Virus genome (UHGV): UHGV-0870948
Reading direction: 5' to 3' (one strand)
From: a virus
Length of the DNA: 43,859 nt
Shown here: piece by piece, positions 3,635-12,906 of the stretch
Position numbering within the stretch: the first letter of the stretch is position 1
How the letters are laid out: the number at the start of each line of letters is the position of its first letter
Position numbers and translations under genes: made by a program
The notes under the pieces: model-generated
What the model was told of the DNA's origin: nothing
The model's database searches: none
The model's input: only the letters and a program-made list of their open reading frames with translations

Positions 3635-3987
3635 TACGCCTCCGATGTAACAGTCGTTATTCCATAGAGAGTGTCGATTTCAGCGGAAAACATGACACGT
3701 CGGGTCGTGGTATCCACCGTCGTATTGAAAGAGAGGATTGATTTAACGCCCTGCGTTTCGAGGATGCGCTTACGGATCGCCAGGTTGTAAGTTTCTGGTT
3801 TTTGCCTGCCCAGCACGGACTGGATCCACGGTGTTCCCTCTGTGGTATCAAGAAACCATTGCCCATACCACAATTCGAATCGCGTTTTCACAGCCTGCGC
3901 TACGGCCTCAGGCGAGTTAATCAGCCAGGTGTCATCACCGCTGCCAAAGGTGTAATCGCCATCGGCGTCTTCACGTCTGTATCGCAT
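3634..3987 (-). CDS. Small baseplate-associated protein (gp46/W-like)
   Basis: 117-aa ORF coupled between the spike and J-like genes. Confidence 0.45.
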   Translation of the reverse strand: MRYRREDADGDYTFGSGDDTWLINSPEAVAQAVKTRFELWYGQWFLDTTEGTPWIQSVLGRQKPETYNLAIRKRILETQGVKSILSFNTTVDTTTRRVMFSAEIDTLYGITTVTSEA

Positions 3988-4596
3988 CAGTTTACCCCGT
4001 CGGTACTGCTTCCACCACGCTGAACACCACCATGAGTGTGTGTATCATCGATTGGCTTGCCATTAGCCTTCACGCTCCCCAAAAACTCAACAGCACCAGT
4101 GATTTTTGAAGCCACACCAGAAACCACAGACCCCACCATGCCCCCCATCCAGGTTAACAGGCCATGAATGGTTACTTTCTCAGAAAAATCAGCCAGAGGG
4201 GCAACCACATCAAGACCACCTGGAGCGACAATTTTAATTTTCCTGGTATCAGGATTAAGCTCAAAATAGGTGCTGCCGTCATCACTACGCAACTGTGTGG
4301 CACTGGTATTAATACCGCTAATCTTCCTTGCCTGCGACTGGGGACCGACAATACAAAACGCATCCGATAAATCATGCATTCTGTCATCGACCGACTCCTG
4401 TATCCCGCCACTCTGCCACCAGAAATCAATACAACGATCGGCAAAAATCACCAAACATTCATCACCGGCTTTAACTGGGAACGTTAGCGTACATCCTCCG
4501 CCGCGCGGGAATACCACTGGCACATCCACCAGCAATGGGTAATTTTTGGTAATGCGGTTGCCGTCATTATCCTTTTCAACCGAACGGATAGCAGGC
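3987..4596 (-). pseudogene. Baseplate spike protein (gpV / Mu gp45-like), 3' portion separated from its 5' end by the IS66-family insertion
   Basis: Frame continues ...PAIRSVEKDNDGNRITKNYPLLVDVPVVF...; the PA codons lie in the left TSD copy and rejoin in frame with the fragment at 7138-7288. Confidence 0.7.
4589..4596. repeat. Target-site duplication, left copy (TAGCAGGC)
   Basis: Identical 8-mer abuts both ends of the IS66-family element. Confidence 0.8.
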
Positions 4597-4626
4597 GTAA
4601 GCGTCAACGGAGCACCGTATTGACGC

Positions 4627-6240
4627 TTATTTATTAGTGAGTACTACGTTCCATGGCAGGAGTTCGTCAACTCGGTTGGAAGGCCATTCCGGCAGTACGC
4701 TCAGGATATGGCGCAGATACGCTTCCGGATCGATACCATTCAACCGGCAGGTGCCGATCAGCCCGTACAACAGTGCACCACGCTCGCCTCCGTGATCGCT
4801 ACCGAAGAACACGTAATTTTTCTTTCCGAGACAGACTGCACGAAGCGCTCTTTCCGCTGTGTTATTGTCCGCCTCCGCCAGACCGTCATCACAGAAGTTG
4901 CACAACGCAACCCAGTGCTTCCTGATATACCGGAACGCATCTCTCAGACGGCATTTTTTCGATAACGTGTGTTCTTTCTCCTGCATCAGCTTATACAGGG
5001 AAGTCAGTAGCGGTTTACTCTGCATTTGCCTGACCGCCAGGCGTTCAGACACCGGCAACCCGCGTATTTCGTGCTCAATGGCGTACAGTTCGCCGATTAG
5101 TTTCAGTGCTTCTTCCGCCGTCGCGCTTTTGGTACTGATATATACATCGTGGATTTTGCGCCGTGCATGAGCCCAGCATCCTGCTTCCGTCAACGCGCCG
5201 CCTTCACGTTCGGCACTGAACAGCCGATCGTAACCTGCGAACGCATCTGCCTGCAGGATACCCCGGAAGGGACGAAGGTGTTGCTCCGGATGTTTACCCT
5301 GATGGTCCGGTGAGTAGGCGAACCAGACCGCCGGAGGTTCTGGCGAACCGGCATTTCGGTCATCCCGGACATACGTCCAGATATATCCTGTTTTCGCCTT
5401 CTTCCTGCCCGGTGCCAGTACTTTTACTGGTGTGTCATCAGTGTGAACCTTGCGGGTGTTCATCACATAACTGTACAGGGCATCATTCAGCGGAGTCATT
5501 AACTGGCAGCACGCATCAACCCAGTTGGAGAGTAAGGCACGGCTCAGTTCGACACCCTGGCGGGCAAAGATTTCACTCTGACGATACAGTGGCAGGTGTT
5601 CGCAGTATTTTCCCGTTAACACGCGGGCAAGTAACCCCGGGCCCGCGATACCACGCTCTATCGGACGGGATGGTGCCGGTGCTTCAACGATGCAGTCACA
5701 TTTTGTACAGGCTTTTTTTACCCGTTCTGTGCGGATCACTTTCAGGGCGCTGCTCACCAGTTCCAGTTGTTCTGCGCTGACTTCCCCCAGATAATCCAGC
5801 TCACCGCCACACTCCGGGCAACAGCTTTCTTCAGGCTCCAGGCGGTATATTTCACGGGGGAGATGTGCCGGTAACGGACGACGATGGCGCGACTGTCGCA
5901 ACTGGCGGGGAACCAGCGGGTCATCCTCACGCCCACTGTAACGATCGCTTTCCTGCTCGCGTTGTTTCAGCAGGGCTTCAGCCTGTTCAACCTCACGACG
6001 CAGTTTTTCAGAACGGGTTCCGAACAGCATCCGGCGCAGTTTTTCTATCTGAGCCCGCAGATGCTCTATTTCCCGTTCATCTTCTTCGATCTTTTCTTCG
6101 GCACGTGCCAGTGCAGAGCGCAGGAAGGCCTCCGTCTCTTCAACCAGACTCAGTTGCTGGTCTTTCTGACGGAGGGCTTCAGCCTGCTCAGAGAGCAGCC
6201 TTTCCAGCTCAGCGATGCGAATGAGGTATTTCTGACTCAT
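4627..6240 (-). CDS. tnpC: IS66-family transposase TnpC
   Basis: 537-aa ORF with N-terminal coiled-coil, CxxC...CxxC zinc motif and conserved IS66 transposase core. Confidence 0.85.
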   Translation of the reverse strand: MSQKYLIRIAELERLLSEQAEALRQKDQQLSLVEETEAFLRSALARAEEKIEEDEREIEHLRAQIEKLRRMLFGTRSEKLRREVEQAEALLKQREQESDRYSGREDDPLVPRQLRQSRHRRPLPAHLPREIYRLEPEESCCPECGGELDYLGEVSAEQLELVSSALKVIRTERVKKACTKCDCIVEAPAPSRPIERGIAGPGLLARVLTGKYCEHLPLYRQSEIFARQGVELSRALLSNWVDACCQLMTPLNDALYSYVMNTRKVHTDDTPVKVLAPGRKKAKTGYIWTYVRDDRNAGSPEPPAVWFAYSPDHQGKHPEQHLRPFRGILQADAFAGYDRLFSAEREGGALTEAGCWAHARRKIHDVYISTKSATAEEALKLIGELYAIEHEIRGLPVSERLAVRQMQSKPLLTSLYKLMQEKEHTLSKKCRLRDAFRYIRKHWVALCNFCDDGLAEADNNTAERALRAVCLGKKNYVFFGSDHGGERGALLYGLIGTCRLNGIDPEAYLRHILSVLPEWPSNRVDELLPWNVVLTNK

Positions 6241-6270
6241 GGCCGTTTTTATAATGCGGTCAGGAGTTTT

Positions 6271-6621
6271 TTACAACATTGTCAGTGCGTTAAGGCGGGA
6301 TGTTTTTGGCTGACGCCAGTCCAGCTTATCGAGGAGCATTGCCAGTTGCGAGCGGGTAATGGATATCTTACCGTCACGCACCGCAGGCCAGATAAACTGA
6401 CCTTCCTCAAGGCGTTTGGTGAACAGGCACAGACCATCAGCATCAGCCCACAGGATTTTAATCGTGTCTCCCCGTCGGCCACGGAAGATAAACAGGTGAC
6501 CGGAGAAGGGGTTATCATCCAGCACATGCTGTATTTGCTCCCCCAGACCGTTGAAGGATTTACGCATATCAGTAACGCCGGCAACGAGCCAGATACGGGT
6601 ACCTGATGGGAGTGAAATCAT
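6271..6621 (-). CDS. tnpB: IS66-family accessory protein TnpB (Orf2)
   Basis: 116-aa ORF MISLPSGTRIWLVAGVTDMRKSFNGL... typical of IS66 Orf2; overlaps tnpA. Confidence 0.8.
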   Translation of the reverse strand: MISLPSGTRIWLVAGVTDMRKSFNGLGEQIQHVLDDNPFSGHLFIFRGRRGDTIKILWADADGLCLFTKRLEEGQFIWPAVRDGKISITRSQLAMLLDKLDWRQPKTSRLNALTML

Positions 6622-7055
6622 CGTCCCCTCCCGGTCAGCTCACGGATCAACACCGTGAGCAGCTCTGGTGAAGGATTTTCCAGCATCATTTTACCGTAAT
6701 GGAATTCCACATGGCAGGAAGCTGCACAAGCAACTGATAATGCCTCCGGAGCAGGAGCATCTGTAGCACAGCGCGTGGTGTCGATAAGTTCCACTGGAAC
6801 CAGAGTCGGAGAGGCCGGAAAAGATTGTGATACTGTAGGGCCTACAATAGTTGGAGGCATTCTGCGAGAAATACGTCCTTCTCTTTGCCAGAGGCGTAGC
6901 CATTTAAAAATCAGGTTGTTATCAACGCCATGTTCCCGGGCCAGTTGTGCAACATTGGCATTTGGTTTCGAAGCCAGTTCAACCATATGAAGTTTAAATT
7001 CATTAGAAAATATCCGGCGGGTTCCGGAGCGCCAGTCTGTAGGTTTATCCATCAA
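6618..7055 (-). CDS. tnpA: IS66-family accessory protein TnpA (Orf1)
   Basis: 145-aa ORF with HTH-like segment (FSNEFKLHMVELASKPNANVAQLAREHGV), first gene of the IS66 operon. Confidence 0.75.
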   Translation of the reverse strand: MMDKPTDWRSGTRRIFSNEFKLHMVELASKPNANVAQLAREHGVDNNLIFKWLRLWQREGRISRRMPPTIVGPTVSQSFPASPTLVPVELIDTTRCATDAPAPEALSVACAASCHVEFHYGKMMLENPSPELLTVLIRELTGRGR

Positions 7056-7137
7056 TAGAACTCCGTCTAATTTAGAAGGAGCTCTAATTTAGTCTGCAAG
7101 GAGCAGGTGTTACAGACGGCATTGGCTTTACGCTTAC

Positions 7138-7145
7138 TAGCAGGC
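7138..7145. repeat. Target-site duplication, right copy (TAGCAGGC)
   Basis: Identical to 4589-4596. Confidence 0.8.
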
Positions 7146-7288
7146 TGCACAACTGCCGTCACCGCATCAGGATCGAATGACTGAATAATGCCAGGCAAGG
7201 CGACACGGATCTGGTTCTTTGTTGTTTCCCGTTCAGATTTGAATGTTTCGGCAAGGTCGCCGCTGCGGGTCTGGTCAGATACTGCCAT
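7138..7288 (-). pseudogene. Baseplate spike protein, 5' portion (first 50 codons) truncated by the IS insertion
   Basis: MAVSDQTRSGDLAETFKSERETTKNQIRVALPGIIQSFDPDAVTAVVQPA, then reads into IS sequence; rejoins in frame with 3987-4596 when the IS and one TSD copy are removed. Confidence 0.7.
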
Positions 7289-7307: not shown

Positions 7308-7330
7308 AAAAAACCCGCCGAAGCGGGTTT
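7308..7330. terminator. Rho-independent (bidirectional) terminator downstream of the HEPN-like gene
   Basis: AAAAAA-CCCGC-CGAA-GCGGG-TTT: GC stem flanked by an A-run on one side and a T-run on the other. Confidence 0.65.
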
Positions 7331-7347
7331 GATAACGTTAATTTTAT

Positions 7348-7743
7348 TCATGAAACTCTAGCAGACTTTAGCTGTTCCCAGCGCTCAAAATAGAGTTCAG
7401 CAGCCTCGATTGCATCCTGTCCCATCTCTTTCGAAACAGTCACATTCGTCAGATCATAGTCAGCTTCATTTCTAGCATCCCGCCACTGGCGAAGTACGAA
7501 AGCTAGGGATTTCAGTGTATTTGTCGGGTATGGCTCTGATTTGCACTCTGAGGGCGTTGACATATAACCCACAGTATTTTTGTGATGCTCATGGGTAAAA
7601 TGCGGTATGGCAGTAAGTGAGCTAATAGACTCATGTAACATACTGTAATACGCCCTTGAGATAGCGCTTCGAAATCCACTCTCAATATTTTCAGACAGAC
7701 ATAATCGAGCGGTATCGAGAATCTGATTGCTAGTTACCGACAT
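7348..7743 (-). CDS. HEPN-like small helical protein (candidate toxin/RNase component)
   Basis: 131 aa; AISRAYYSMLHE (R-x6-H, resembles the conserved HEPN helix) and LRQWRDARNEADY; overlaps the upstream gene by 14 nt; region visibly AT-richer than flanks. Confidence 0.5.
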   Translation of the reverse strand: MSVTSNQILDTARLCLSENIESGFRSAISRAYYSMLHESISSLTAIPHFTHEHHKNTVGYMSTPSECKSEPYPTNTLKSLAFVLRQWRDARNEADYDLTNVTVSKEMGQDAIEAAELYFERWEQLKSARVS

Positions 7744-8503
7744 GGTAGCTCACCCCCGTATGCAACTGACGCGGAGAGGTAAATCTAGCTAACAGGGAAC
7801 AATCATCCAGTTTAGATTCAGCGCAGACTCTATCAGCCAAGTCGAAGTTCATTTTGGCAATAGTTTTAGGCTCAAGATTTTTAATATCAACAACATAGCA
7901 ACCGCTTCCACTAAGCTGAACGAAACCTGTCGTAGCCTTGTATTCACTTAGCAAGCCCCAGATTATGGATGCTAAGGTCTGGAACTGTTCCTTCGAGCAC
8001 TGTGTGGCGCTATAGAAATTATCCATTTCTGCAAGGAGTTCTTCTTTGTGCTTCATAGCATTACTCCTGCCTTCTGATTCAGAAAGAAGCTTAATGTGCT
8101 CTTCCATATAAAATTTTAACTGTTCACGCTCGCCGCAACGGTACGCCCAACTGTATGCGTTGTGACTAAAGAGTTTTGTCCGATACTTCTTTGCCAGCGG
8201 GACATAGACATCCTTGAGTTCATTATAGCTAAATGTATTAATTAAAATGTGATGATAGTGCATTGCCAACGTTACATCGTTTACTTCTAGGCTTATCCTG
8301 AGATAACGTAACGCGCTTTCAATCTTTCCGGTTATTGCATCCAGATAAGATAGTGCAATGTTGGTAGCAGGCGTTGGAGAGACAGAAAGTTCCTCTCGAA
8401 TTTTCTTTTCAGTGAAGGGATCTAAACTTTCCCTATCCAATAGAAGCGCATTGAATTGTTCAATATATTTTTGCGCTTTTTCTAATGGGATGCCTGCCGC
8501 CAT
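7730..8503 (-). CDS. Hypothetical protein, partner of the HEPN-like protein
   Basis: 257 aa, predicted mainly helical, no motif recognised; translationally coupled to the HEPN-like ORF. Confidence 0.55.
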   Translation of the reverse strand: MAAGIPLEKAQKYIEQFNALLLDRESLDPFTEKKIREELSVSPTPATNIALSYLDAITGKIESALRYLRISLEVNDVTLAMHYHHILINTFSYNELKDVYVPLAKKYRTKLFSHNAYSWAYRCGEREQLKFYMEEHIKLLSESEGRSNAMKHKEELLAEMDNFYSATQCSKEQFQTLASIIWGLLSEYKATTGFVQLSGSGCYVVDIKNLEPKTIAKMNFDLADRVCAESKLDDCSLLARFTSPRQLHTGVSYHVGN

Positions 8504-8598
8504 GGATTATTTCTCTTACTAAAGGGATTGTGATTGTGAACTTTGAACAATATCTCGTCAACCTTAAAGCGCTCATCTCGGAAGATTGACATCAAACT

Positions 8599-8940
8599 TT
8601 AGCGTAACGCCTTTTTACAAGGGAATGATCCGATGATTTTAGGCGCATCCATGCTGTTCTGCAGAAGCTGGACGTTCAGGAAACGCGTTTCGGTGCCAGG
8701 GCGACGAATGTATTCAAAGCCGTAGTTGTTACCGTCTTTGGCAGGCATAAGCCCCATGTCTACTTTCAAACCATTGGTACCCAGTTCGGTGATTTTTTGA
8801 GAGGTAACTCTTTCACCGTTAATTGTCGATAACTCGCCCTGGTTTGCAACCATAGTGTAGCCACCGCATTTAACCGTGAAGCCATCCGCCCACACGCTGC
8901 ACGCAGAAAAGACAGCTAACAGAAAAATGATACCCCTCAT
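8599..8940 (-). CDS. Secreted (periplasmic) protein with N-terminal signal peptide
   Basis: MRGIIFLLAVFSACSVWA-DG...: hydrophobic signal peptide with A-x-A-type cleavage site; two Cys in the mature part; starts 4 nt after the hub-like gene stop. Confidence 0.55.
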   Translation of the reverse strand: MRGIIFLLAVFSACSVWADGFTVKCGGYTMVANQGELSTINGERVTSQKITELGTNGLKVDMGLMPAKDGNNYGFEYIRRPGTETRFLNVQLLQNSMDAPKIIGSFPCKKALR

Positions 8941-8943
8941 TGC

Positions 8944-10005
8944 TCATCCCCTTTGCAAAGCCGATTGCGTATACAGATCCGCCGCGCCACGCGCTTCGCA
9001 CATCATATCCATGTACCACGCCTGGCCCCTTGTATCGCCAGTGTACATAATCCCGCGCACAATATAAACGCCATCCGTTGCGATGCTGGCAGGTTGTGCT
9101 GTGGTGCCGCTGAGCGTGATATTTCCGTCTGTGTTCTGGTCGGTGATCTGCCCACCAGCCATCGCGATATCATTGTTCGACAGCGCGGTGCGGTACACGG
9201 AAGCCTGATCCAGCTGAATAAGCCCGTTAACCCGGATGTTCGGATTAATAAGAGCGCGGACGTTTACGCCGTTACCGATAGTCTGCTGCGGCATGCCGAT
9301 AAGCCCGGTGGCGCTGTTGAGCACAATCGCGTCGTGAACATACTCGTTATTCGCCACCATCTGGCGCTGACCGTCCACAAATTGCCATGTTGCGCCACAT
9401 TGTCCGGCCACGTTATCCATAAGATGCCGTGTCATGCCGAACAGCACCCGCCCTCGAGGGTATACGGTAGCAGGCATTTCAGGCGTCAGTCCTTCGGTCG
9501 CGCCTTTGGCCTCAAAGTCTTTCATCAGCGCACGGTTCACATCTGCGACTGTGTAACCGGCAGCCAGCGTCTGTGAGGTTATACTGGTGGCAAATGCCAG
9601 ATCAGTATCTGCTGCCTGAATCAGGACGTAGGTATCAACCGGACTGTCTTTTCCTGTGACCGAGTAGCGAATTTCTCCGCTGAAAATCAGCCCGTAGTTG
9701 CGGCCATCACTCTGGCCCACGTCCGCCGCGTCAACTTCCCGCACAGTCCCGACGTCGCTTGCCGCCACCTCCGGCGCGATACCGTCGTAACCGGCAATCA
9801 GCCGCACTTTCGAAAACTCCTGCCCGGTAATTCGGTTCACAGTATCTGCCGAAAGGTTATAAATTTTGATAGTCCCTACCCGGGACGCGCTGCTGATGTT
9901 GAACCAGTCGATCGTAAAGGTGACTTTGAAATCACTTAGCTCAATTCCCTTACCGTTCCCGTCCACAAGCTGCAGCTCGAAATGTCTCATCCAGTTCTGT
10001 GACAT
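8944..10005 (-). CDS. Baseplate hub-like / tail protein
   Basis: 353-aa ORF in the tail operon shortly after the tape measure gene; functional call is positional. Confidence 0.45.
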   Translation of the reverse strand: MSQNWMRHFELQLVDGNGKGIELSDFKVTFTIDWFNISSASRVGTIKIYNLSADTVNRITGQEFSKVRLIAGYDGIAPEVAASDVGTVREVDAADVGQSDGRNYGLIFSGEIRYSVTGKDSPVDTYVLIQAADTDLAFATSITSQTLAAGYTVADVNRALMKDFEAKGATEGLTPEMPATVYPRGRVLFGMTRHLMDNVAGQCGATWQFVDGQRQMVANNEYVHDAIVLNSATGLIGMPQQTIGNGVNVRALINPNIRVNGLIQLDQASVYRTALSNNDIAMAGGQITDQNTDGNITLSGTTAQPASIATDGVYIVRGIMYTGDTRGQAWYMDMMCEARGAADLYTQSALQRG

Positions 10006-10007
10006 GC

Positions 10008-10310
10008 TTACTCCGTTGATACCAGCAAATGACTGCGCCCGCCCAGGTCAGTTTTCGTGGGATAATCCTGTGTGTTGTCATCGCAGACCACCAACAGCTT
10101 AAAACCAAGTCCCATACAGGCGTACTGCGCCAGCAGATCAGCGCCAGTGACGAGAGGAATACCGGAGATTACCGGCTCTCCTCTGTCGTTCTGCAGGTCC
10201 ATAATCCAGTAAGGATCGCGCCATATGATGCTAATCCGCCAGGTGACACCACCCAGGACGATGCTGAACTGCTGGTTGTCCGCTGTCAGCGGAATTTCCT
10301 GAATTGTCAT
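10008..10310 (-). CDS. Phage tail protein (hypothetical)
   Basis: 100-aa ORF coupled in the tail operon. Confidence 0.4.
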   Translation of the reverse strand: MTIQEIPLTADNQQFSIVLGGVTWRISIIWRDPYWIMDLQNDRGEPVISGIPLVTGADLLAQYACMGLGFKLLVVCDDNTQDYPTKTDLGGRSHLLVSTE

Positions 10311-10897
10311 TAGCCGCCTCCCAGTAATGACGCCACGTTACCCGTGATGCTTTTCAGCAGTGAAGTATCTGGAGGCTTTGTGGTTTTGTTACCGCTATTC
10401 TGTACCGCCGACGTGCTGGCCCCTTCCTTCATGTTGGTTTTATCCGCGACGGTAATCTGCTGTGTCCGGGAGATAATGACCTCCCTCAGGGTGAGGACGG
10501 CGGACAGGACGTTTTCGGTTGTCTTGTCCGTCGTCACTTCCAGCGCCCGGATCAACATGTTGCTGTACAGCCGTTTACCGGTTACCACATCGAAGGGGAT
10601 ACGGCTTTCCTGCAGATCCAGTAGCTCCTGATACGTCTGCTGAGGACTCAGGCCGAGCAGGCTGGTAGCTGTCAGATTACTGGCAAAATCCAGCAATGCG
10701 CCGCCACCGGCGAAACCAACCTCCATCACCACTTCTGACGGTTTTTTATAGGCATGATCAGCGACAGCGGCCCCGACCTCTACCGGATGCTCTGTTATTT
10801 CAAGCATATCTGTATGCTTCTCTGAAATAACAACACTGGGAACAATCATTCCTATTTTTCTGCTCTGCTGATGAAAAAGTGTAGAGAGAATATCCAC
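10310..10897 (-). CDS. Phage tail protein (hypothetical)
   Basis: 195-aa ORF immediately after the tape measure gene (stop/start overlap). Confidence 0.4.
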   Translation of the reverse strand: MDILSTLFHQQSRKIGMIVPSVVISEKHTDMLEITEHPVEVGAAVADHAYKKPSEVVMEVGFAGGGALLDFASNLTATSLLGLSPQQTYQELLDLQESRIPFDVVTGKRLYSNMLIRALEVTTDKTTENVLSAVLTLREVIISRTQQITVADKTNMKEGASTSAVQNSGNKTTKPPDTSLLKSITGNVASLLGGG

Positions 10898-12906
10898 TAA
10901 CCCACCCTCACCTGATTACTTCGCATGACCTGAGCATTTGCAGACTGTTGCCGACGTGCAACCTCATTACCGACAGCGTGCGGATCTCCGCCACCGTAAA
11001 TGTGGTAAGTATTTTGCTGGTTAACCTCTGTCATTTTGCCACTAATTCCCGCCACGGCAGCCTTATTAATCAGCTCTCGAGAATAGATATTTCTTCCATT
11101 TTCATGCTGGATAATGCTGCTCATCAATGCTGACATGGTTTGCGGATCGCTCATATTCAGGGCAGCCCGGGGATCCACTCCCAGTCGTTGCGATACAGCC
11201 CTGATATACGCAGTTGTGTTGTTATTATCAGACGCAGGTGCCCAGGTAGAGATAATTTTCTCCACACTGTTTATTCCCCGTCCGGCGTACAGCATTAACT
11301 GACGAGCAAGAGCCCGTAATCCATCAAAAGCAGTTTCAAATCTGGCAAATCGCCCGCCCGGGCGTTCAAGAGAAGCCCCTGCCTGACCAGCAAAATTAAG
11401 GTTTCCCGGATTGTTATTCCGTTCTCCTCGTTTCGTAGCCTGTGCATATTGTTCCGGCTCATCATCACCAAACCAGCCGCGTACCGTCCGGCCCACACTG
11501 CGGGGATCGAATCCCCAGTGCTCTTTAATCCAGTCGGCAGTACTGTTAGCGCTGTCTGTAACCATCGGCATCGCTGACGGATTTTCGCTGCCCTGATTAA
11601 GTATCTGTTTGCCGATGATGACGGCATCAGCCCAGCGGCCATCTTTGATAGCGTTGAGCAGGTCGGCGATCATGTTCAGCATTTTGCTGAATTCGCCCAT
11701 CTGGTCGATGAAGTTGCTGAAATCCCACTTCAGGGACCATGATTTGGGGTCAATATTGAGCAGTTTCGCCAGCGCTTTCGCCAGTTCATTAACAGACCCT
11801 TTCAGGTCACGAACCATCTTCAGCGCGGCATCGACCTCCGGCTTCCACTTGCCCCAGTCAATCAGGCTGTCGCCGCCTTCCTTCCAGGTCTGATAGTCCT
11901 CCCACAGAAGGGCAATCCCCGCCGCCAGCGCGGTAATGAGGCCAATCGGCGACATCCAGAACGTACTGTTCAGAATGCGCAGCGCAATCGTCAGCGCGCC
12001 AAACAGCGAGATGAGCTCCCGCGTTTGCTTATCCAGCGATTGCCACCAGGTGATAAGGCTGGATGTTCCCTCAATTAGCCTGAAGAACAGCCGCCCGATG
12101 ATGTCTCCGATCGCCAGAATGCCTTTTATGGCTTTCGTCAGGGTCTGCTCGATGCGCGGGAAGTTATCGAGGATGTGGCGGCGCAGTGTGTCCAGCGAAC
12201 CCGCCAGACCACCAGCAAGATTAGAGCCGATTTTGTCACGGGCCATGCCTGCCATCGCGCCGAACTCGCGCAGGGAGGTCATGAATTTGTTGGAGCTTCT
12301 GGCCGCCTCGTCAGCATTGAAGCCGATAGCTTTCGCCATTGCGCTGTACTGCCCGGAGAAATCACCCACACCCCGGCGCATCGCCATAAGGGTATTTTCG
12401 TCAATGCCTAGCATCTGCGCATACTGGTTAGCCCGGTAATACGGCATGCCGCTGAGCTTCTGGCCTACACCTGTAAAAATAGCGGCCATGTCACGCATGT
12501 TACCGCTGGCATCCCGTGTCTGTACCCCCAGGCGATTCAGGAATCCTTCCGCGCCGGGATTGTTACGAACAAACCGGGAGAGGCTTTCCAGAGAGGTTCG
12601 CGCCGCGTCCACGCTGCCGCCAACCTGCGAAACCGCATAGCCAATAGACTGAATTCCCTGGACTGTCGCGCCGGTGCGCTGTGACGCCCGGTAAAGATTA
12701 TCCAGGCCGGAGGCGATCTTAGCCGTGAAGGCCACCACGGACAGCGCAGCTCCTTCAACGGCCAGTCCCATTTTGATAGCATTTGCAGTTGTACCGGCGA
12801 GGACAGAACCGAACTTTTTCGCTCCTGCATCATCCACACTGAAGCCAAGCGAGACGAGGAAATCTTTAATAGTTTCAGCGTTCATTATCCTCTCTCCATT
12901 TCTCAA
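10897..12906 (-). CDS. Tail tape measure protein
   Basis: Largest ORF of the tail module (669 aa), Ala/Gly-rich helical, follows the chaperone gene. Confidence 0.6.
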   Translation of the reverse strand: MRNGERIMNAETIKDFLVSLGFSVDDAGAKKFGSVLAGTTANAIKMGLAVEGAALSVVAFTAKIASGLDNLYRASQRTGATVQGIQSIGYAVSQVGGSVDAARTSLESLSRFVRNNPGAEGFLNRLGVQTRDASGNMRDMAAIFTGVGQKLSGMPYYRANQYAQMLGIDENTLMAMRRGVGDFSGQYSAMAKAIGFNADEAARSSNKFMTSLREFGAMAGMARDKIGSNLAGGLAGSLDTLRRHILDNFPRIEQTLTKAIKGILAIGDIIGRLFFRLIEGTSSLITWWQSLDKQTRELISLFGALTIALRILNSTFWMSPIGLITALAAGIALLWEDYQTWKEGGDSLIDWGKWKPEVDAALKMVRDLKGSVNELAKALAKLLNIDPKSWSLKWDFSNFIDQMGEFSKMLNMIADLLNAIKDGRWADAVIIGKQILNQGSENPSAMPMVTDSANSTADWIKEHWGFDPRSVGRTVRGWFGDDEPEQYAQATKRGERNNNPGNLNFAGQAGASLERPGGRFARFETAFDGLRALARQLMLYAGRGINSVEKIISTWAPASDNNNTTAYIRAVSQRLGVDPRAALNMSDPQTMSALMSSIIQHENGRNIYSRELINKAAVAGISGKMTEVNQQNTYHIYGGGDPHAVGNEVARRQQSANAQVMRSNQVRVG

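What the first reader, a model, noticed from the sequence alone, without database searches (positions are those of the whole stretch)
8599..8940. Signal-peptide protein wedged between baseplate hub-like and HEPN cassette genes
Seen in sequence: 113-aa ORF with a classic cleavable signal peptide (MRGIIFLLAVFSACSVWA-DG) and two Cys in the mature part, starting 4 nt after the hub-like gene stop. A periplasmic protein is not an expected baseplate component. It may be a superinfection-exclusion or envelope-modifying moron product, or the third member of the adjacent cassette.
Basis: partly seen in the sequence, partly recalled or inferred. Interest (0 to 1): 0.5.

Follow-up and report, generated by a model that had tools for sequence, protein, structure and literature searches.

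The report
Exported beta-barrel protein in phage tail operon
This small gene in a defective E. coli prophage encodes a protein exported to the periplasm; it is a conserved but uncharacterised accessory gene of this phage group's tail operon, not part of the neighbouring gene cassette, and it may block entry of rival phages, which is untested.

Summary
Window 8599-8940 (minus strand) encodes a 113-aa protein. It has a Sec/signal-peptidase-I type leader (MRGIIFLLAVFSACSVWA|DG) and two Cys that are invariant across the family.

The gene is real and under selection: dN/dS is 0.11 over residues 40-113. It belongs to a tiny uncharacterised family (phrog_3443), with no Pfam, NCBIfam or PADLOC match. 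The mature domain models confidently (pLDDT 90.7) as a closed 8-stranded beta-barrel. That fold is generic: avidins score highest and PliC/PhiA score lower.

The gene is not part of the neighbouring cassette. In 74 of 80 hub-anchored loci, and in SEN34-like phages of Salmonella, Klebsiella and Yersinia, it sits directly after the hub gene. What follows it, before the spike gene, varies.

In the other 6 loci an unrelated exported protein or lipoprotein fills the same position. More distant relatives (Pam3, an Acinetobacter phage, an Edwardsiella phage) have hub directly followed by spike, so the gene is not a baseplate part.

Alleles range from 53 to 99% identity next to a 96-100% identical hub. 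They recombine independently of the cassette.

Function is unproven. The best guess is a late-expressed periplasmic entry or superinfection blocker.

The parts
8599..8940 (-). CDS of the 113-aa exported protein (family phrog_3443), including its stop codon
   Evidence: purifying selection
8887..8940 (-). Signal peptide, residues 1-18, with predicted signal-peptidase-I cleavage after VWA
   Evidence: n/h/c architecture conserved in 49 distinct leaders, Ala at -1 in 47. C14 is not conserved, so the protein is not a lipoprotein.
8602..8886 (-). Mature domain, 95 aa: predicted closed 8-stranded up-and-down beta-barrel with invariant C25 and C108. Residues 19-39 are variable and residues 40-113 are conserved.
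8947..8953 (-). Shine-Dalgarno-like AAGGGGA inside the end of the hub gene, 6 nt before the ATG. No promoter-like site lies upstream.
8944..10005 (-). Baseplate hub gene (E217 gp41 / Pam3 gp19-like). The exported-protein gene follows its stop after 3 nt.
   Evidence: phrog_196 at E 9e-90, PF22759 at E 1.8e-5
7311..8561 (-). Separate self-contained accessory unit: promoter-like sites 8561-8506, the 257-aa gene (7730-8503), the 131-aa gene (7348-7743) and a terminator at 7330-7311. It is not functionally tied to the finding.
   Evidence: independent assortment
7138..7288 (-). 5' fragment of the spike gene, the downstream edge of the hub-spike accessory slot
   Evidence: 98.7% identical to bases 603-753 of the intact BY63 spike gene in window (+ strand) orientation, i.e. 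the 5' end of the minus-strand gene; PF18352
4597..7137 (-). IS66-family element (three transposase ORFs) inserted in the spike gene with an 8-bp target duplication. The 3' part of the spike gene lies at 3987-4596.

Best explanation
The gene encodes a non-structural accessory protein of SEN34-like temperate myophages.

Shown or strongly supported:
- It is translated as part of the late tail operon, directly after the baseplate hub gene.
- Its conserved leader has the features of a Sec/signal-peptidase-I signal, which would release a roughly 95-residue soluble periplasmic protein after Ala18.
- The mature domain is predicted with high confidence to fold as a closed 8-stranded beta-barrel carrying two invariant Cys.
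- It occupies a dedicated position between hub and spike. In this phage group that position always holds a tightly coupled exported protein, from at least three unrelated families. A second, freely variable cargo slot follows it.

Inferred:
- A C25-C108 disulfide staples the first and last strands of the barrel.
- During the productive cycle the protein sits in the periplasm and blocks entry of further phages that share this tail type. This would be superinfection exclusion, protection from lysis-from-without, or protection of progeny from being wasted on infected cells.
- It does so by binding, through its strongly conserved face (residues 40-113), a conserved partner that is exposed in the periplasm.

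The partner is unknown. My tentative choice is the incoming tail tip, meaning the hub-capped tube end or the tape-measure protein after the spike is lost, rather than the outer-membrane receptor.
For: Export:
- The leader is conserved in architecture but not in sequence, with Ala at -1 in 47 of 49 distinct leaders.
- The two Cys are invariant across the whole family.
- One relative is a lipoprotein fusion with an LSGC lipobox, at the same locus position.

Fold: pLDDT 90.7, a closed 8-strand barrel.

Non-structural:
- Hub is directly followed by spike in Pam3, whose solved baseplate is complete without such a protein (PMC9942802), and in Edwardsiella ZHS and Acinetobacter BUCTT20.
- E217 gp42, encoded between hub gp41 and tip gp43, is not among the modelled virion proteins (PMC10329688).
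- In 6 of 80 loci whose hub is at least 96% identical, the position holds an unrelated 241-aa lipoprotein or a roughly 150-aa signal-peptide protein. Hafnia phage yong1 carries the latter family. Burkholderia phage vB_E192a has yet another signal-peptide protein there.

Late-operon expression:
- In the loci read, the hub-gene spacing ranges from an ATGA overlap to about 20 nt.
- There is no promoter-like site upstream, whereas the next cassette has its own promoter-like sites and terminator.

Arms-race signature:
- There are 7 allele classes (53-99% identity) next to a single hub class.
- Gene-sized recombination tracts surround the gene.
- dN/dS is 0.11 in the core versus about 0.6 in the N-terminal strands.
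- The other variable genes of the module are the tape measure, spike and fibres, the parts I take (from general knowledge of contractile tails) to meet the host envelope.

Precedents:
- T4 Spackle is a cleaved-signal, disulfide-bonded periplasmic protein that inhibits the tail lysozyme of superinfecting phage (PMC7677548).
- T5 Llp is a periplasm-facing lipoprotein encoded next to a tail gene (PMC9586334).
Against: - No experiment and no informative homology bears on function. There are no Pfam, NCBIfam or PADLOC hits and no solved relative.
- The gene appears to be expressed only with late genes, so it would not protect a lysogen as classical prophage exclusion genes do.
- Alleles show no association with the alleles of the tape measure, its lysin domain, the spike or the fibre N-terminus (AMI <= 0.05, p >= 0.1). 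No phage partner is therefore indicated by co-variation.
- A chromosomal, non-phage copy exists in one metagenomic contig. That copy hints at a possible cellular role.
Confidence: 0.4

Rival explanations
1. Peptidoglycan-hydrolase inhibitor, working like Spackle or PliC. The periplasmic barrel would bind and inhibit the lysin domain carried at the C-terminus of the tape-measure protein of incoming phages. This would stop cell-wall penetration and lysis-from-without.
For: - The tape-measure C-terminus (about residues 492-623) is homologous to a solved phage endolysin (7q47, E 9.5e-14) and to Gp29 of 9vvp (E 1.4e-20).
- Relatives are annotated as lytic transglycosylase or carry an SLT domain.
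- A related Acinetobacter phage carries an LprI-family lysozyme-inhibitor gene beside its tape-measure gene.
- T4 Spackle is a precedent (PMC7677548).
Against: - There is no Pfam MliC/PliC match.
- Avidins and other barrels score higher than the inhibitors.
- Alleles 96-98% identical to the window's occur with a tape-measure C-terminal domain that is only about 31% identical. There is no allele association (AMI 0.02, p 0.17).
Confidence: 0.12
2. Receptor jamming, working like Llp or Cor. The protein would bind the periplasmic face of the outer-membrane receptor used by this phage and make it unusable. This would prevent superinfection and loss of progeny on debris.
For: - The protein is exported and encoded within the tail module.
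- The position is sometimes filled by a lipoprotein, and one family member is a lipoprotein fusion.
- T5 Llp is a precedent (PMC9586334).
Against: - The protein is soluble rather than lipid-anchored in almost all members.
- The gene sits beside the hub, not beside the fibre or receptor-binding genes.
- Its alleles do not track fibre N-terminal classes or spike classes.
- The core is nearly invariant across phages of E. coli, Salmonella, Klebsiella and Yersinia, whose fibres differ widely.
- The fibre receptor-binding tips themselves were not tested.
Confidence: 0.13
3. A fitness or ligand-binding factor unrelated to phage exclusion. It would be a calycin- or avidin-like periplasmic barrel that binds a small molecule or envelope component for the benefit of the phage or host.
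For: - One relative sits in a purely chromosomal context between clsA-yciY and yciI-tonB.
Against: - There is no avidin-family sequence signal.
- There is no own promoter, so expression in lysogens is doubtful.
- The family is almost confined to one phage tail module.
- Replacement by unrelated exported proteins at the same position suggests a phage-cycle role.
Confidence: 0.15
4. A virion or assembly component. The hydrophobic N-terminus would be an uncleaved membrane-active segment of a tail-tip protein, or the protein would chaperone hub or spike assembly.
For: - The gene has a conserved position inside the baseplate gene block and tight coupling to the hub gene.
Against: - The leader is hypervariable in sequence while keeping a small -3/-1 cleavage motif. 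That pattern is typical of a cleaved signal, not of a packed structural helix.
- Homologous baseplates lack any such gene.
- The gene is replaced by unrelated exported proteins next to near-identical hubs.
Confidence: 0.05
5. A lysis accessory: a periplasmic regulator or helper of holin, endolysin or spanin action.
For: - Expression appears to be late and the location periplasmic.
Against: - The gene lies about 16 kb from the lysis block, which has its own Rz spanin.
- No similarity to any lysis family was found.
Confidence: 0.05

Closest known systems
T4 Spackle (gp61.3)
   Same: Both are small phage-encoded proteins with a cleaved periplasmic targeting signal and one disulfide (PMC7677548). 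Spackle acts in the periplasm on the tail of superinfecting phage. It is the best working analogy for the mechanism proposed here.
   Different: Spackle is an alpha-helical bundle and an early gene of a virulent phage. This protein is predicted to be all-beta and sits in a late tail operon of a temperate phage. There is no sequence relationship, and inhibition of a lysin is not supported by allele pairing.
T5 Llp / Cor superinfection-exclusion lipoproteins
   Same: All are small envelope-targeted proteins encoded within or beside tail genes. Llp has an intramolecular disulfide and acts from the periplasmic side (PMC9586334).
   Different: Llp and Cor are outer-membrane lipoproteins of about 60 residues, encoded next to the receptor-binding protein. 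This protein lacks a conserved lipobox Cys, is larger, has a barrel fold, and lies next to the hub gene.
PliC/MliC and Brucella PhiA periplasmic inhibitors of peptidoglycan hydrolases
   Different: There is no Pfam or HMM match. Sequence identity is 6-9%. Other barrels such as avidins and Cap15 match better.
Phage morons in tail regions (own knowledge: lambda lom, HK97 gp15)
   Same: Both are accessory, non-structural, envelope-targeted products embedded among tail genes.
   Different: From my own knowledge, morons are typically autonomous units with their own promoter and terminator and are expressed from the prophage. Here that description fits the neighbouring 257+131-aa cassette, not this gene. 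This gene is coupled to the hub gene and near-universal in its phage group.

Membership tests
Sec-dependent, signal-peptidase-I cleaved secreted proteins | Basic n-region, uncharged hydrophobic h-region, and small residues at -3/-1 before the mature N-terminus | tested here: met
   The window leader is MR-GIIFLLAVFSACS-VWA|DG. Across 49 distinct family leaders, 43 have K/R early, 48 have an uncharged run of at least 9, 49 have a small -3/-1 site, and -1 is Ala in 47. This was rule-based; no SignalP run was possible.
Sec-dependent, signal-peptidase-I cleaved secreted proteins | Actual export and cleavage in vivo | not testable with these tools
   This needs PhoA or BlaM fusions, fractionation, or N-terminal sequencing.
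Bacterial lipoproteins (signal peptidase II) | A conserved lipobox ending in an invariant Cys that becomes residue +1 | tested here: not met
   FSAC (residues 11-14) loosely fits a lipobox. However, the Cys is replaced by G, S, F or Y in most homologues, while the A-x-A site is kept. Only the 292-aa fusion relative P0146 has a true LSGC lipobox.
MliC/PliC lysozyme-inhibitor family (PF09864) | Match to the family HMM | tested here: not met
   There is no Pfam hit for the window protein at E<=0.1, nor for nine distant relatives at E<=1.
MliC/PliC lysozyme-inhibitor family (PF09864) | Eight-stranded periplasmic beta-barrel fold | tested here: inconclusive
T4 Spackle family | Sequence or fold relationship to the helical-bundle Spackle | tested here: not met
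   A profile search of PDB sequences found nothing below E 1. The model is all-beta, whereas Spackle is an alpha-helical bundle (PMC7677548).
Avidin/streptavidin family | Sequence family membership | tested here: not met
   There is no Pfam hit. Identity in the structural alignments is 6-11%. Biotin-binding residues were not examined.
Baseplate structural proteins of Pam3/E217-type myophages | Corresponds to a component of the solved baseplates and is present in homologous operons | tested here: not met
   Pam3 has six baseplate components with hub gp19 next to spike gp20. No gene lies between hub and spike in Edwardsiella ZHS or Acinetobacter BUCTT20. The position is filled by unrelated exported proteins in 6 of 80 loci. 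Virion proteomics of a SEN34-like phage were not found.
Moron (autonomous accessory unit) | Own promoter and terminator, with variable presence among related phages | tested here: not met
   No promoter-like site lies upstream, and the gene follows the hub stop after 3 nt. It is present in 74 of 80 loci. The adjacent 257+131-aa cassette does meet this definition.
The adjacent 257-aa + 131-aa cassette (as a third member) | Co-inheritance with the cassette | tested here: not met
   The identical cassette occurs with 99, 65 and 56% alleles of this gene. An identical allele occurs with unrelated cargo. Breakpoints flank the gene.

The most novel reading that the evidence does not exclude
The hub-spike junction of SEN34-like myophages would be a dedicated slot for periplasmic 'tail-tip blockers'. 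In this reading, the barrel protein, and the unrelated exported proteins that replace it, bind the hub-capped end of an incoming tail tube once the spike has dissociated in the periplasm, and plug DNA or tape-measure exit. This would be superinfection exclusion aimed at the most conserved part of the rival's baseplate, by a protein co-translated with the phage's own hub but kept away from it by export. It would be a new exclusion family with a new target.
Probability: 0.12. Interest if true: 0.65.

Novelty: new member of a known kind. Interest (0 to 1): 0.38.

Why it matters
The gene is found in about 5% of complete E. coli genomes (288 of 5426), including EPEC E2348/69. It also occurs in prophages and phages of Salmonella, Klebsiella, Yersinia and Citrobacter, yet it has no annotation in any family library.

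It marks a position in the tail operon that always encodes an exported protein, from at least three unrelated families. That makes a compact, testable set of candidate envelope-level phage-exclusion factors.

If the role is confirmed, it would add a new fold, and possibly a new target, to the short list of periplasmic entry blockers. It would also matter for predicting cross-resistance among temperate myophages and phage-therapy isolates of this type. If the protein does not exclude phages, it is simply one more conserved hypothetical accessory gene.

Tried and rejected
- Pfam, NCBIfam, PADLOC and PDB-sequence searches of the protein, its distant relatives and the alternative occupants of the position all gave nothing.
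- The exhaustive representative search listed giant proteins (4267 aa, 5298 aa and others) at E down to 1e-35. Local hmmsearch showed that, for P0124, whose alignments I read, the score comes from about 20 repeats of roughly 5 bits each. The domain table shows the other giant proteins also have only weak individual domains (best 6-19 bits). I treat these hits as artefacts.
- The first structure model, which included the signal peptide, was mediocre (pLDDT 73). I replaced it with a mature-domain model built on a deeper alignment.
- Foldseek against viral predicted structures gave no hit at E<=0.001. The afdb50 library was unavailable.
- I tested whether alleles co-vary with the tape measure, its lysin domain, the spike or the fibre N-terminus. 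There was no association. The fibre receptor-binding tips were not tested.
- I considered programmed read-through from the hub gene, because hub stop + 3 nt + ATG is in frame in the window. I rejected it because the spacing elsewhere is 2, 5, 11 or 20 nt, or an ATGA overlap.
- The SEN34 paper contains no virion proteomics.
- Literature searches found no study of this family.

Full report
**Observation.** The ORF lies at 8599-8940 on the minus strand and encodes 113 aa beginning MRGIIFLLAVFSACSVWADG. It follows the 353-aa baseplate hub gene (8944-10005), which matches phrog_196 at E 9e-90 and PF22759 E217_GP41. The junction reads hub stop TGA, then GCA, then ATG, and an AAGGGGA Shine-Dalgarno-like motif sits 6 nt upstream. 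The surrounding window is a lambdoid-type myovirus prophage. On the minus strand the tail module runs: tape measure (10897-12906), Dit-like tube initiator (10310-10897), Pam3 gp18-like plug (10008-10310), hub, this gene, a 257-aa plus 131-aa cassette, spike, sheath initiator, baseplate J, DUF2612, fibres.

**The gene is real.** It matches phrog_3443 (unknown function) at E 1e-46. It has 396 homologues at E<=1e-3 in the 5.8-billion-protein collection; the 120 listed are unnamed or called hypothetical, and those named are from Enterobacteriaceae. An exhaustive HMM search of 1.84 billion cluster representatives found only 41 clusters. Several of those are fragments, and five are giant repeat proteins whose high scores are sums of many weak repeats rather than true homology. 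Over residues 40-113, dN/dS is 0.11, although synonymous differences are near saturation (pS about 0.55).

**Export.** No signal-peptide predictor was available, so I used conservation as the test. Leader sequences are hypervariable but keep the architecture of a Sec signal. Of 49 distinct leaders, 43 have K/R in the first six residues, 48 have an uncharged run of at least 9, and all have small residues at -3/-1. Ala is at -1 in 47. The lipobox-like FSAC in the window protein is not conserved, so cleavage is by signal peptidase I and the protein is not a lipoprotein. Across 34 members down to 25% identity, the only invariant residues are C25, C108 and one Leu. One relative of 292 aa is a genuine lipoprotein (LSGC) that carries this domain at its C-terminus.

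**Position in related genomes.**
- The gene follows the hub directly in E. coli BY63, PD7, F637 and E2348/69.
- It does so in Salmonella phage SEN34, Klebsiella phages Mulock, RCIP0034 and ST340-VIM1phi10.1 (26% identity), Yersinia phage YP3 and E. coli phage 683R1.
- It does so in metagenomic relatives at about 30% identity.
- To avoid bias from searching with the gene itself, I anchored on the hub instead. Of 80 IMG/VR loci with a hub at least 96% identical, 74 carry a homologue immediately downstream.
- The other six carry, at the same tightly coupled position, an unrelated 241-aa lipoprotein (LTSC lipobox) or an unrelated signal-peptide protein of about 150 aa.
- Hafnia phage yong1 has the latter family. 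Burkholderia phage vB_E192a has a further, reverse-strand signal-peptide protein between hub and spike.
- In Pam3, Edwardsiella phage ZHS and Acinetobacter phage BUCTT20 the hub gene is followed directly by the spike gene. The solved Pam3 baseplate is complete with six components (PMC9942802).
- In E217 the gene between hub gp41 and tip gp43 is not among the modelled virion proteins (PMC10329688).

The protein is therefore not a baseplate part. The position is a lineage-specific slot for an exported protein.

**Relation to the neighbouring cassette.** The sequence between this gene and the spike varies from 241 to 1511 bp and holds unrelated cargo, including a DUF4282 membrane protein, several two-gene cassettes and small membrane-anchored proteins. 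In the window, that cargo has promoter-like sites at 8561-8506 and a strong terminator at 7330-7311, whereas this gene has no promoter-like site upstream. Binned identity shows two patterns. Loci L061 and L070 are 94-99% identical to the window through the hub, fall to 40-68% across this gene, and are 100% identical across the cassette. L017 is 100% identical through the hub and this gene, then unrelated. The gene and the cassette are independent modules.

**Population pattern.** Among the 80 loci, Dit, plug, hub and sheath initiator are about 90-100% identical. Baseplate J and DUF2612 fall mostly into one 90% class each. This gene spans 53-99% identity in seven classes. The other strongly variable genes are the tape measure, spike and fibres. 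Variation is concentrated in the leader and in residues 19-39 (dN/dS about 0.6), while the rest is nearly invariant. Allele classes show no association with tape-measure, tape-measure lysin-domain, spike or fibre N-terminal classes (AMI <= 0.05, p >= 0.1). Weak signals with baseplate J (AMI 0.06, p 0.05) and DUF2612 (AMI 0.09, p 0.02) were not corrected for multiple tests, and I give them no weight.

**Mechanism.** Three things are well supported: an exported, disulfide-containing periplasmic barrel; co-expression with late tail genes; and a non-structural role. The function itself is inferred. I favour a periplasmic block to entry of further phages of this tail type, for four reasons:
- non-homologous exported proteins substitute for one another at one position, as is typical of exclusion or counter-defence genes;
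- the gene shows deep allelic diversity and gene-sized exchange;
- the other variable genes of the module are the tape measure, spike and fibres, which I take, from general knowledge of contractile tails, to be the parts that meet the host envelope;
- T4 Spackle (PMC7677548) and T5 Llp (PMC9586334) are precedents.

A Spackle/PliC-like inhibition of the tape-measure lysin is attractive because the tape-measure C-terminus is homologous to an endolysin (7q47, E 9.5e-14). It is weakened because near-identical alleles pair with lysin domains only 31% identical. Receptor jamming is weakened by the lack of a lipid anchor and the lack of linkage to fibre or spike alleles. A lysis role is unlikely because the phage has its own Rz in a lysis block about 16 kb away. 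The main caveat for any exclusion model is the apparently late-only expression, which would protect infected cells rather than lysogens.

**Verdict.** This is an uncharacterised but widespread family in a conserved exported-protein slot. It is a good candidate for a new periplasmic exclusion factor, but nothing here proves that. Interest is moderate.

Noticed in passing
window 4597-7137 (flanks 3987-4596 and 7138-7288): An IS66-family element with three transposase ORFs is inserted in the spike gene and has an 8-bp target-site duplication. Bases 603-610 of the intact BY63 spike gene are present on both sides. The prophage's tail is therefore almost certainly defective.
   Followed up: yes
window 7311-8561: The 257-aa plus 131-aa cassette is a self-contained unit with promoter-like sites and a terminator. 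It has no Pfam, NCBIfam or PADLOC match (phrog_17809 and phrog_5176 only). Diverged versions (30-44% identity, and 87%) sit in the same slot in other loci, and E. coli F637 has a cassette of similar architecture there. It is a candidate uncharacterised two-gene defence or toxin-antitoxin system. The 'HEPN' label was not verified.
   Followed up: partly
L074/L077 (about 6068-6793 in L077); L075, L083, L091, L095; L173 4122-4532: Two further uncharacterised exported families replace the barrel protein directly after a hub that is at least 96% identical. One is a 241-aa lipoprotein. The other is a signal-peptide protein of about 150 aa, also present in Hafnia phage yong1, where the annotated start seems to cut off the leader.
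   Followed up: partly
L175 3915-4286 (Burkholderia phage vB_E192a, reverse strand): A 123-aa protein with a clear signal peptide (MKKLLLTAALLAPLAAVA|DD) and two Cys lies between hub and spike in a distant relative, on the opposite strand. It has no Pfam match.
   Followed up: partly
L176 1166-1522 (Acinetobacter phage BUCTT20): A gene annotated as an LprI-family lysozyme inhibitor is inserted on the reverse strand between the tape-measure and tube-initiator genes of a homologous tail module.
   Followed up: no
L015 6001-6357: A distant family member (P0157, 118 aa, with a signal peptide and both Cys) sits in a non-phage chromosomal context, between clsA-yciY and yciI-tonB, in a 122-kb metagenomic contig. 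No close relative was found in the reference-genome collection.
   Followed up: partly
window 10900-11499 (tape-measure residues 470-669): The tape-measure C-terminus is homologous to a solved phage endolysin (7q47) and to the N-terminus of Gp29 in 9vvp, though Pfam does not recognise it. In 7 of 70 related loci this domain is replaced by one that is only about 31% identical.
   Followed up: partly
Hub-spike cargo in L004, L005, L002, L009: Many cargo genes in the variable slot encode membrane-anchored proteins. These include SEN34_21 and Mulock_21 (N-terminal transmembrane segments), a DUF4282 protein, and an RCIP0034 reverse-strand gene with a C-terminal transmembrane segment. The whole junction looks enriched for envelope-targeted products.
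   Followed up: no
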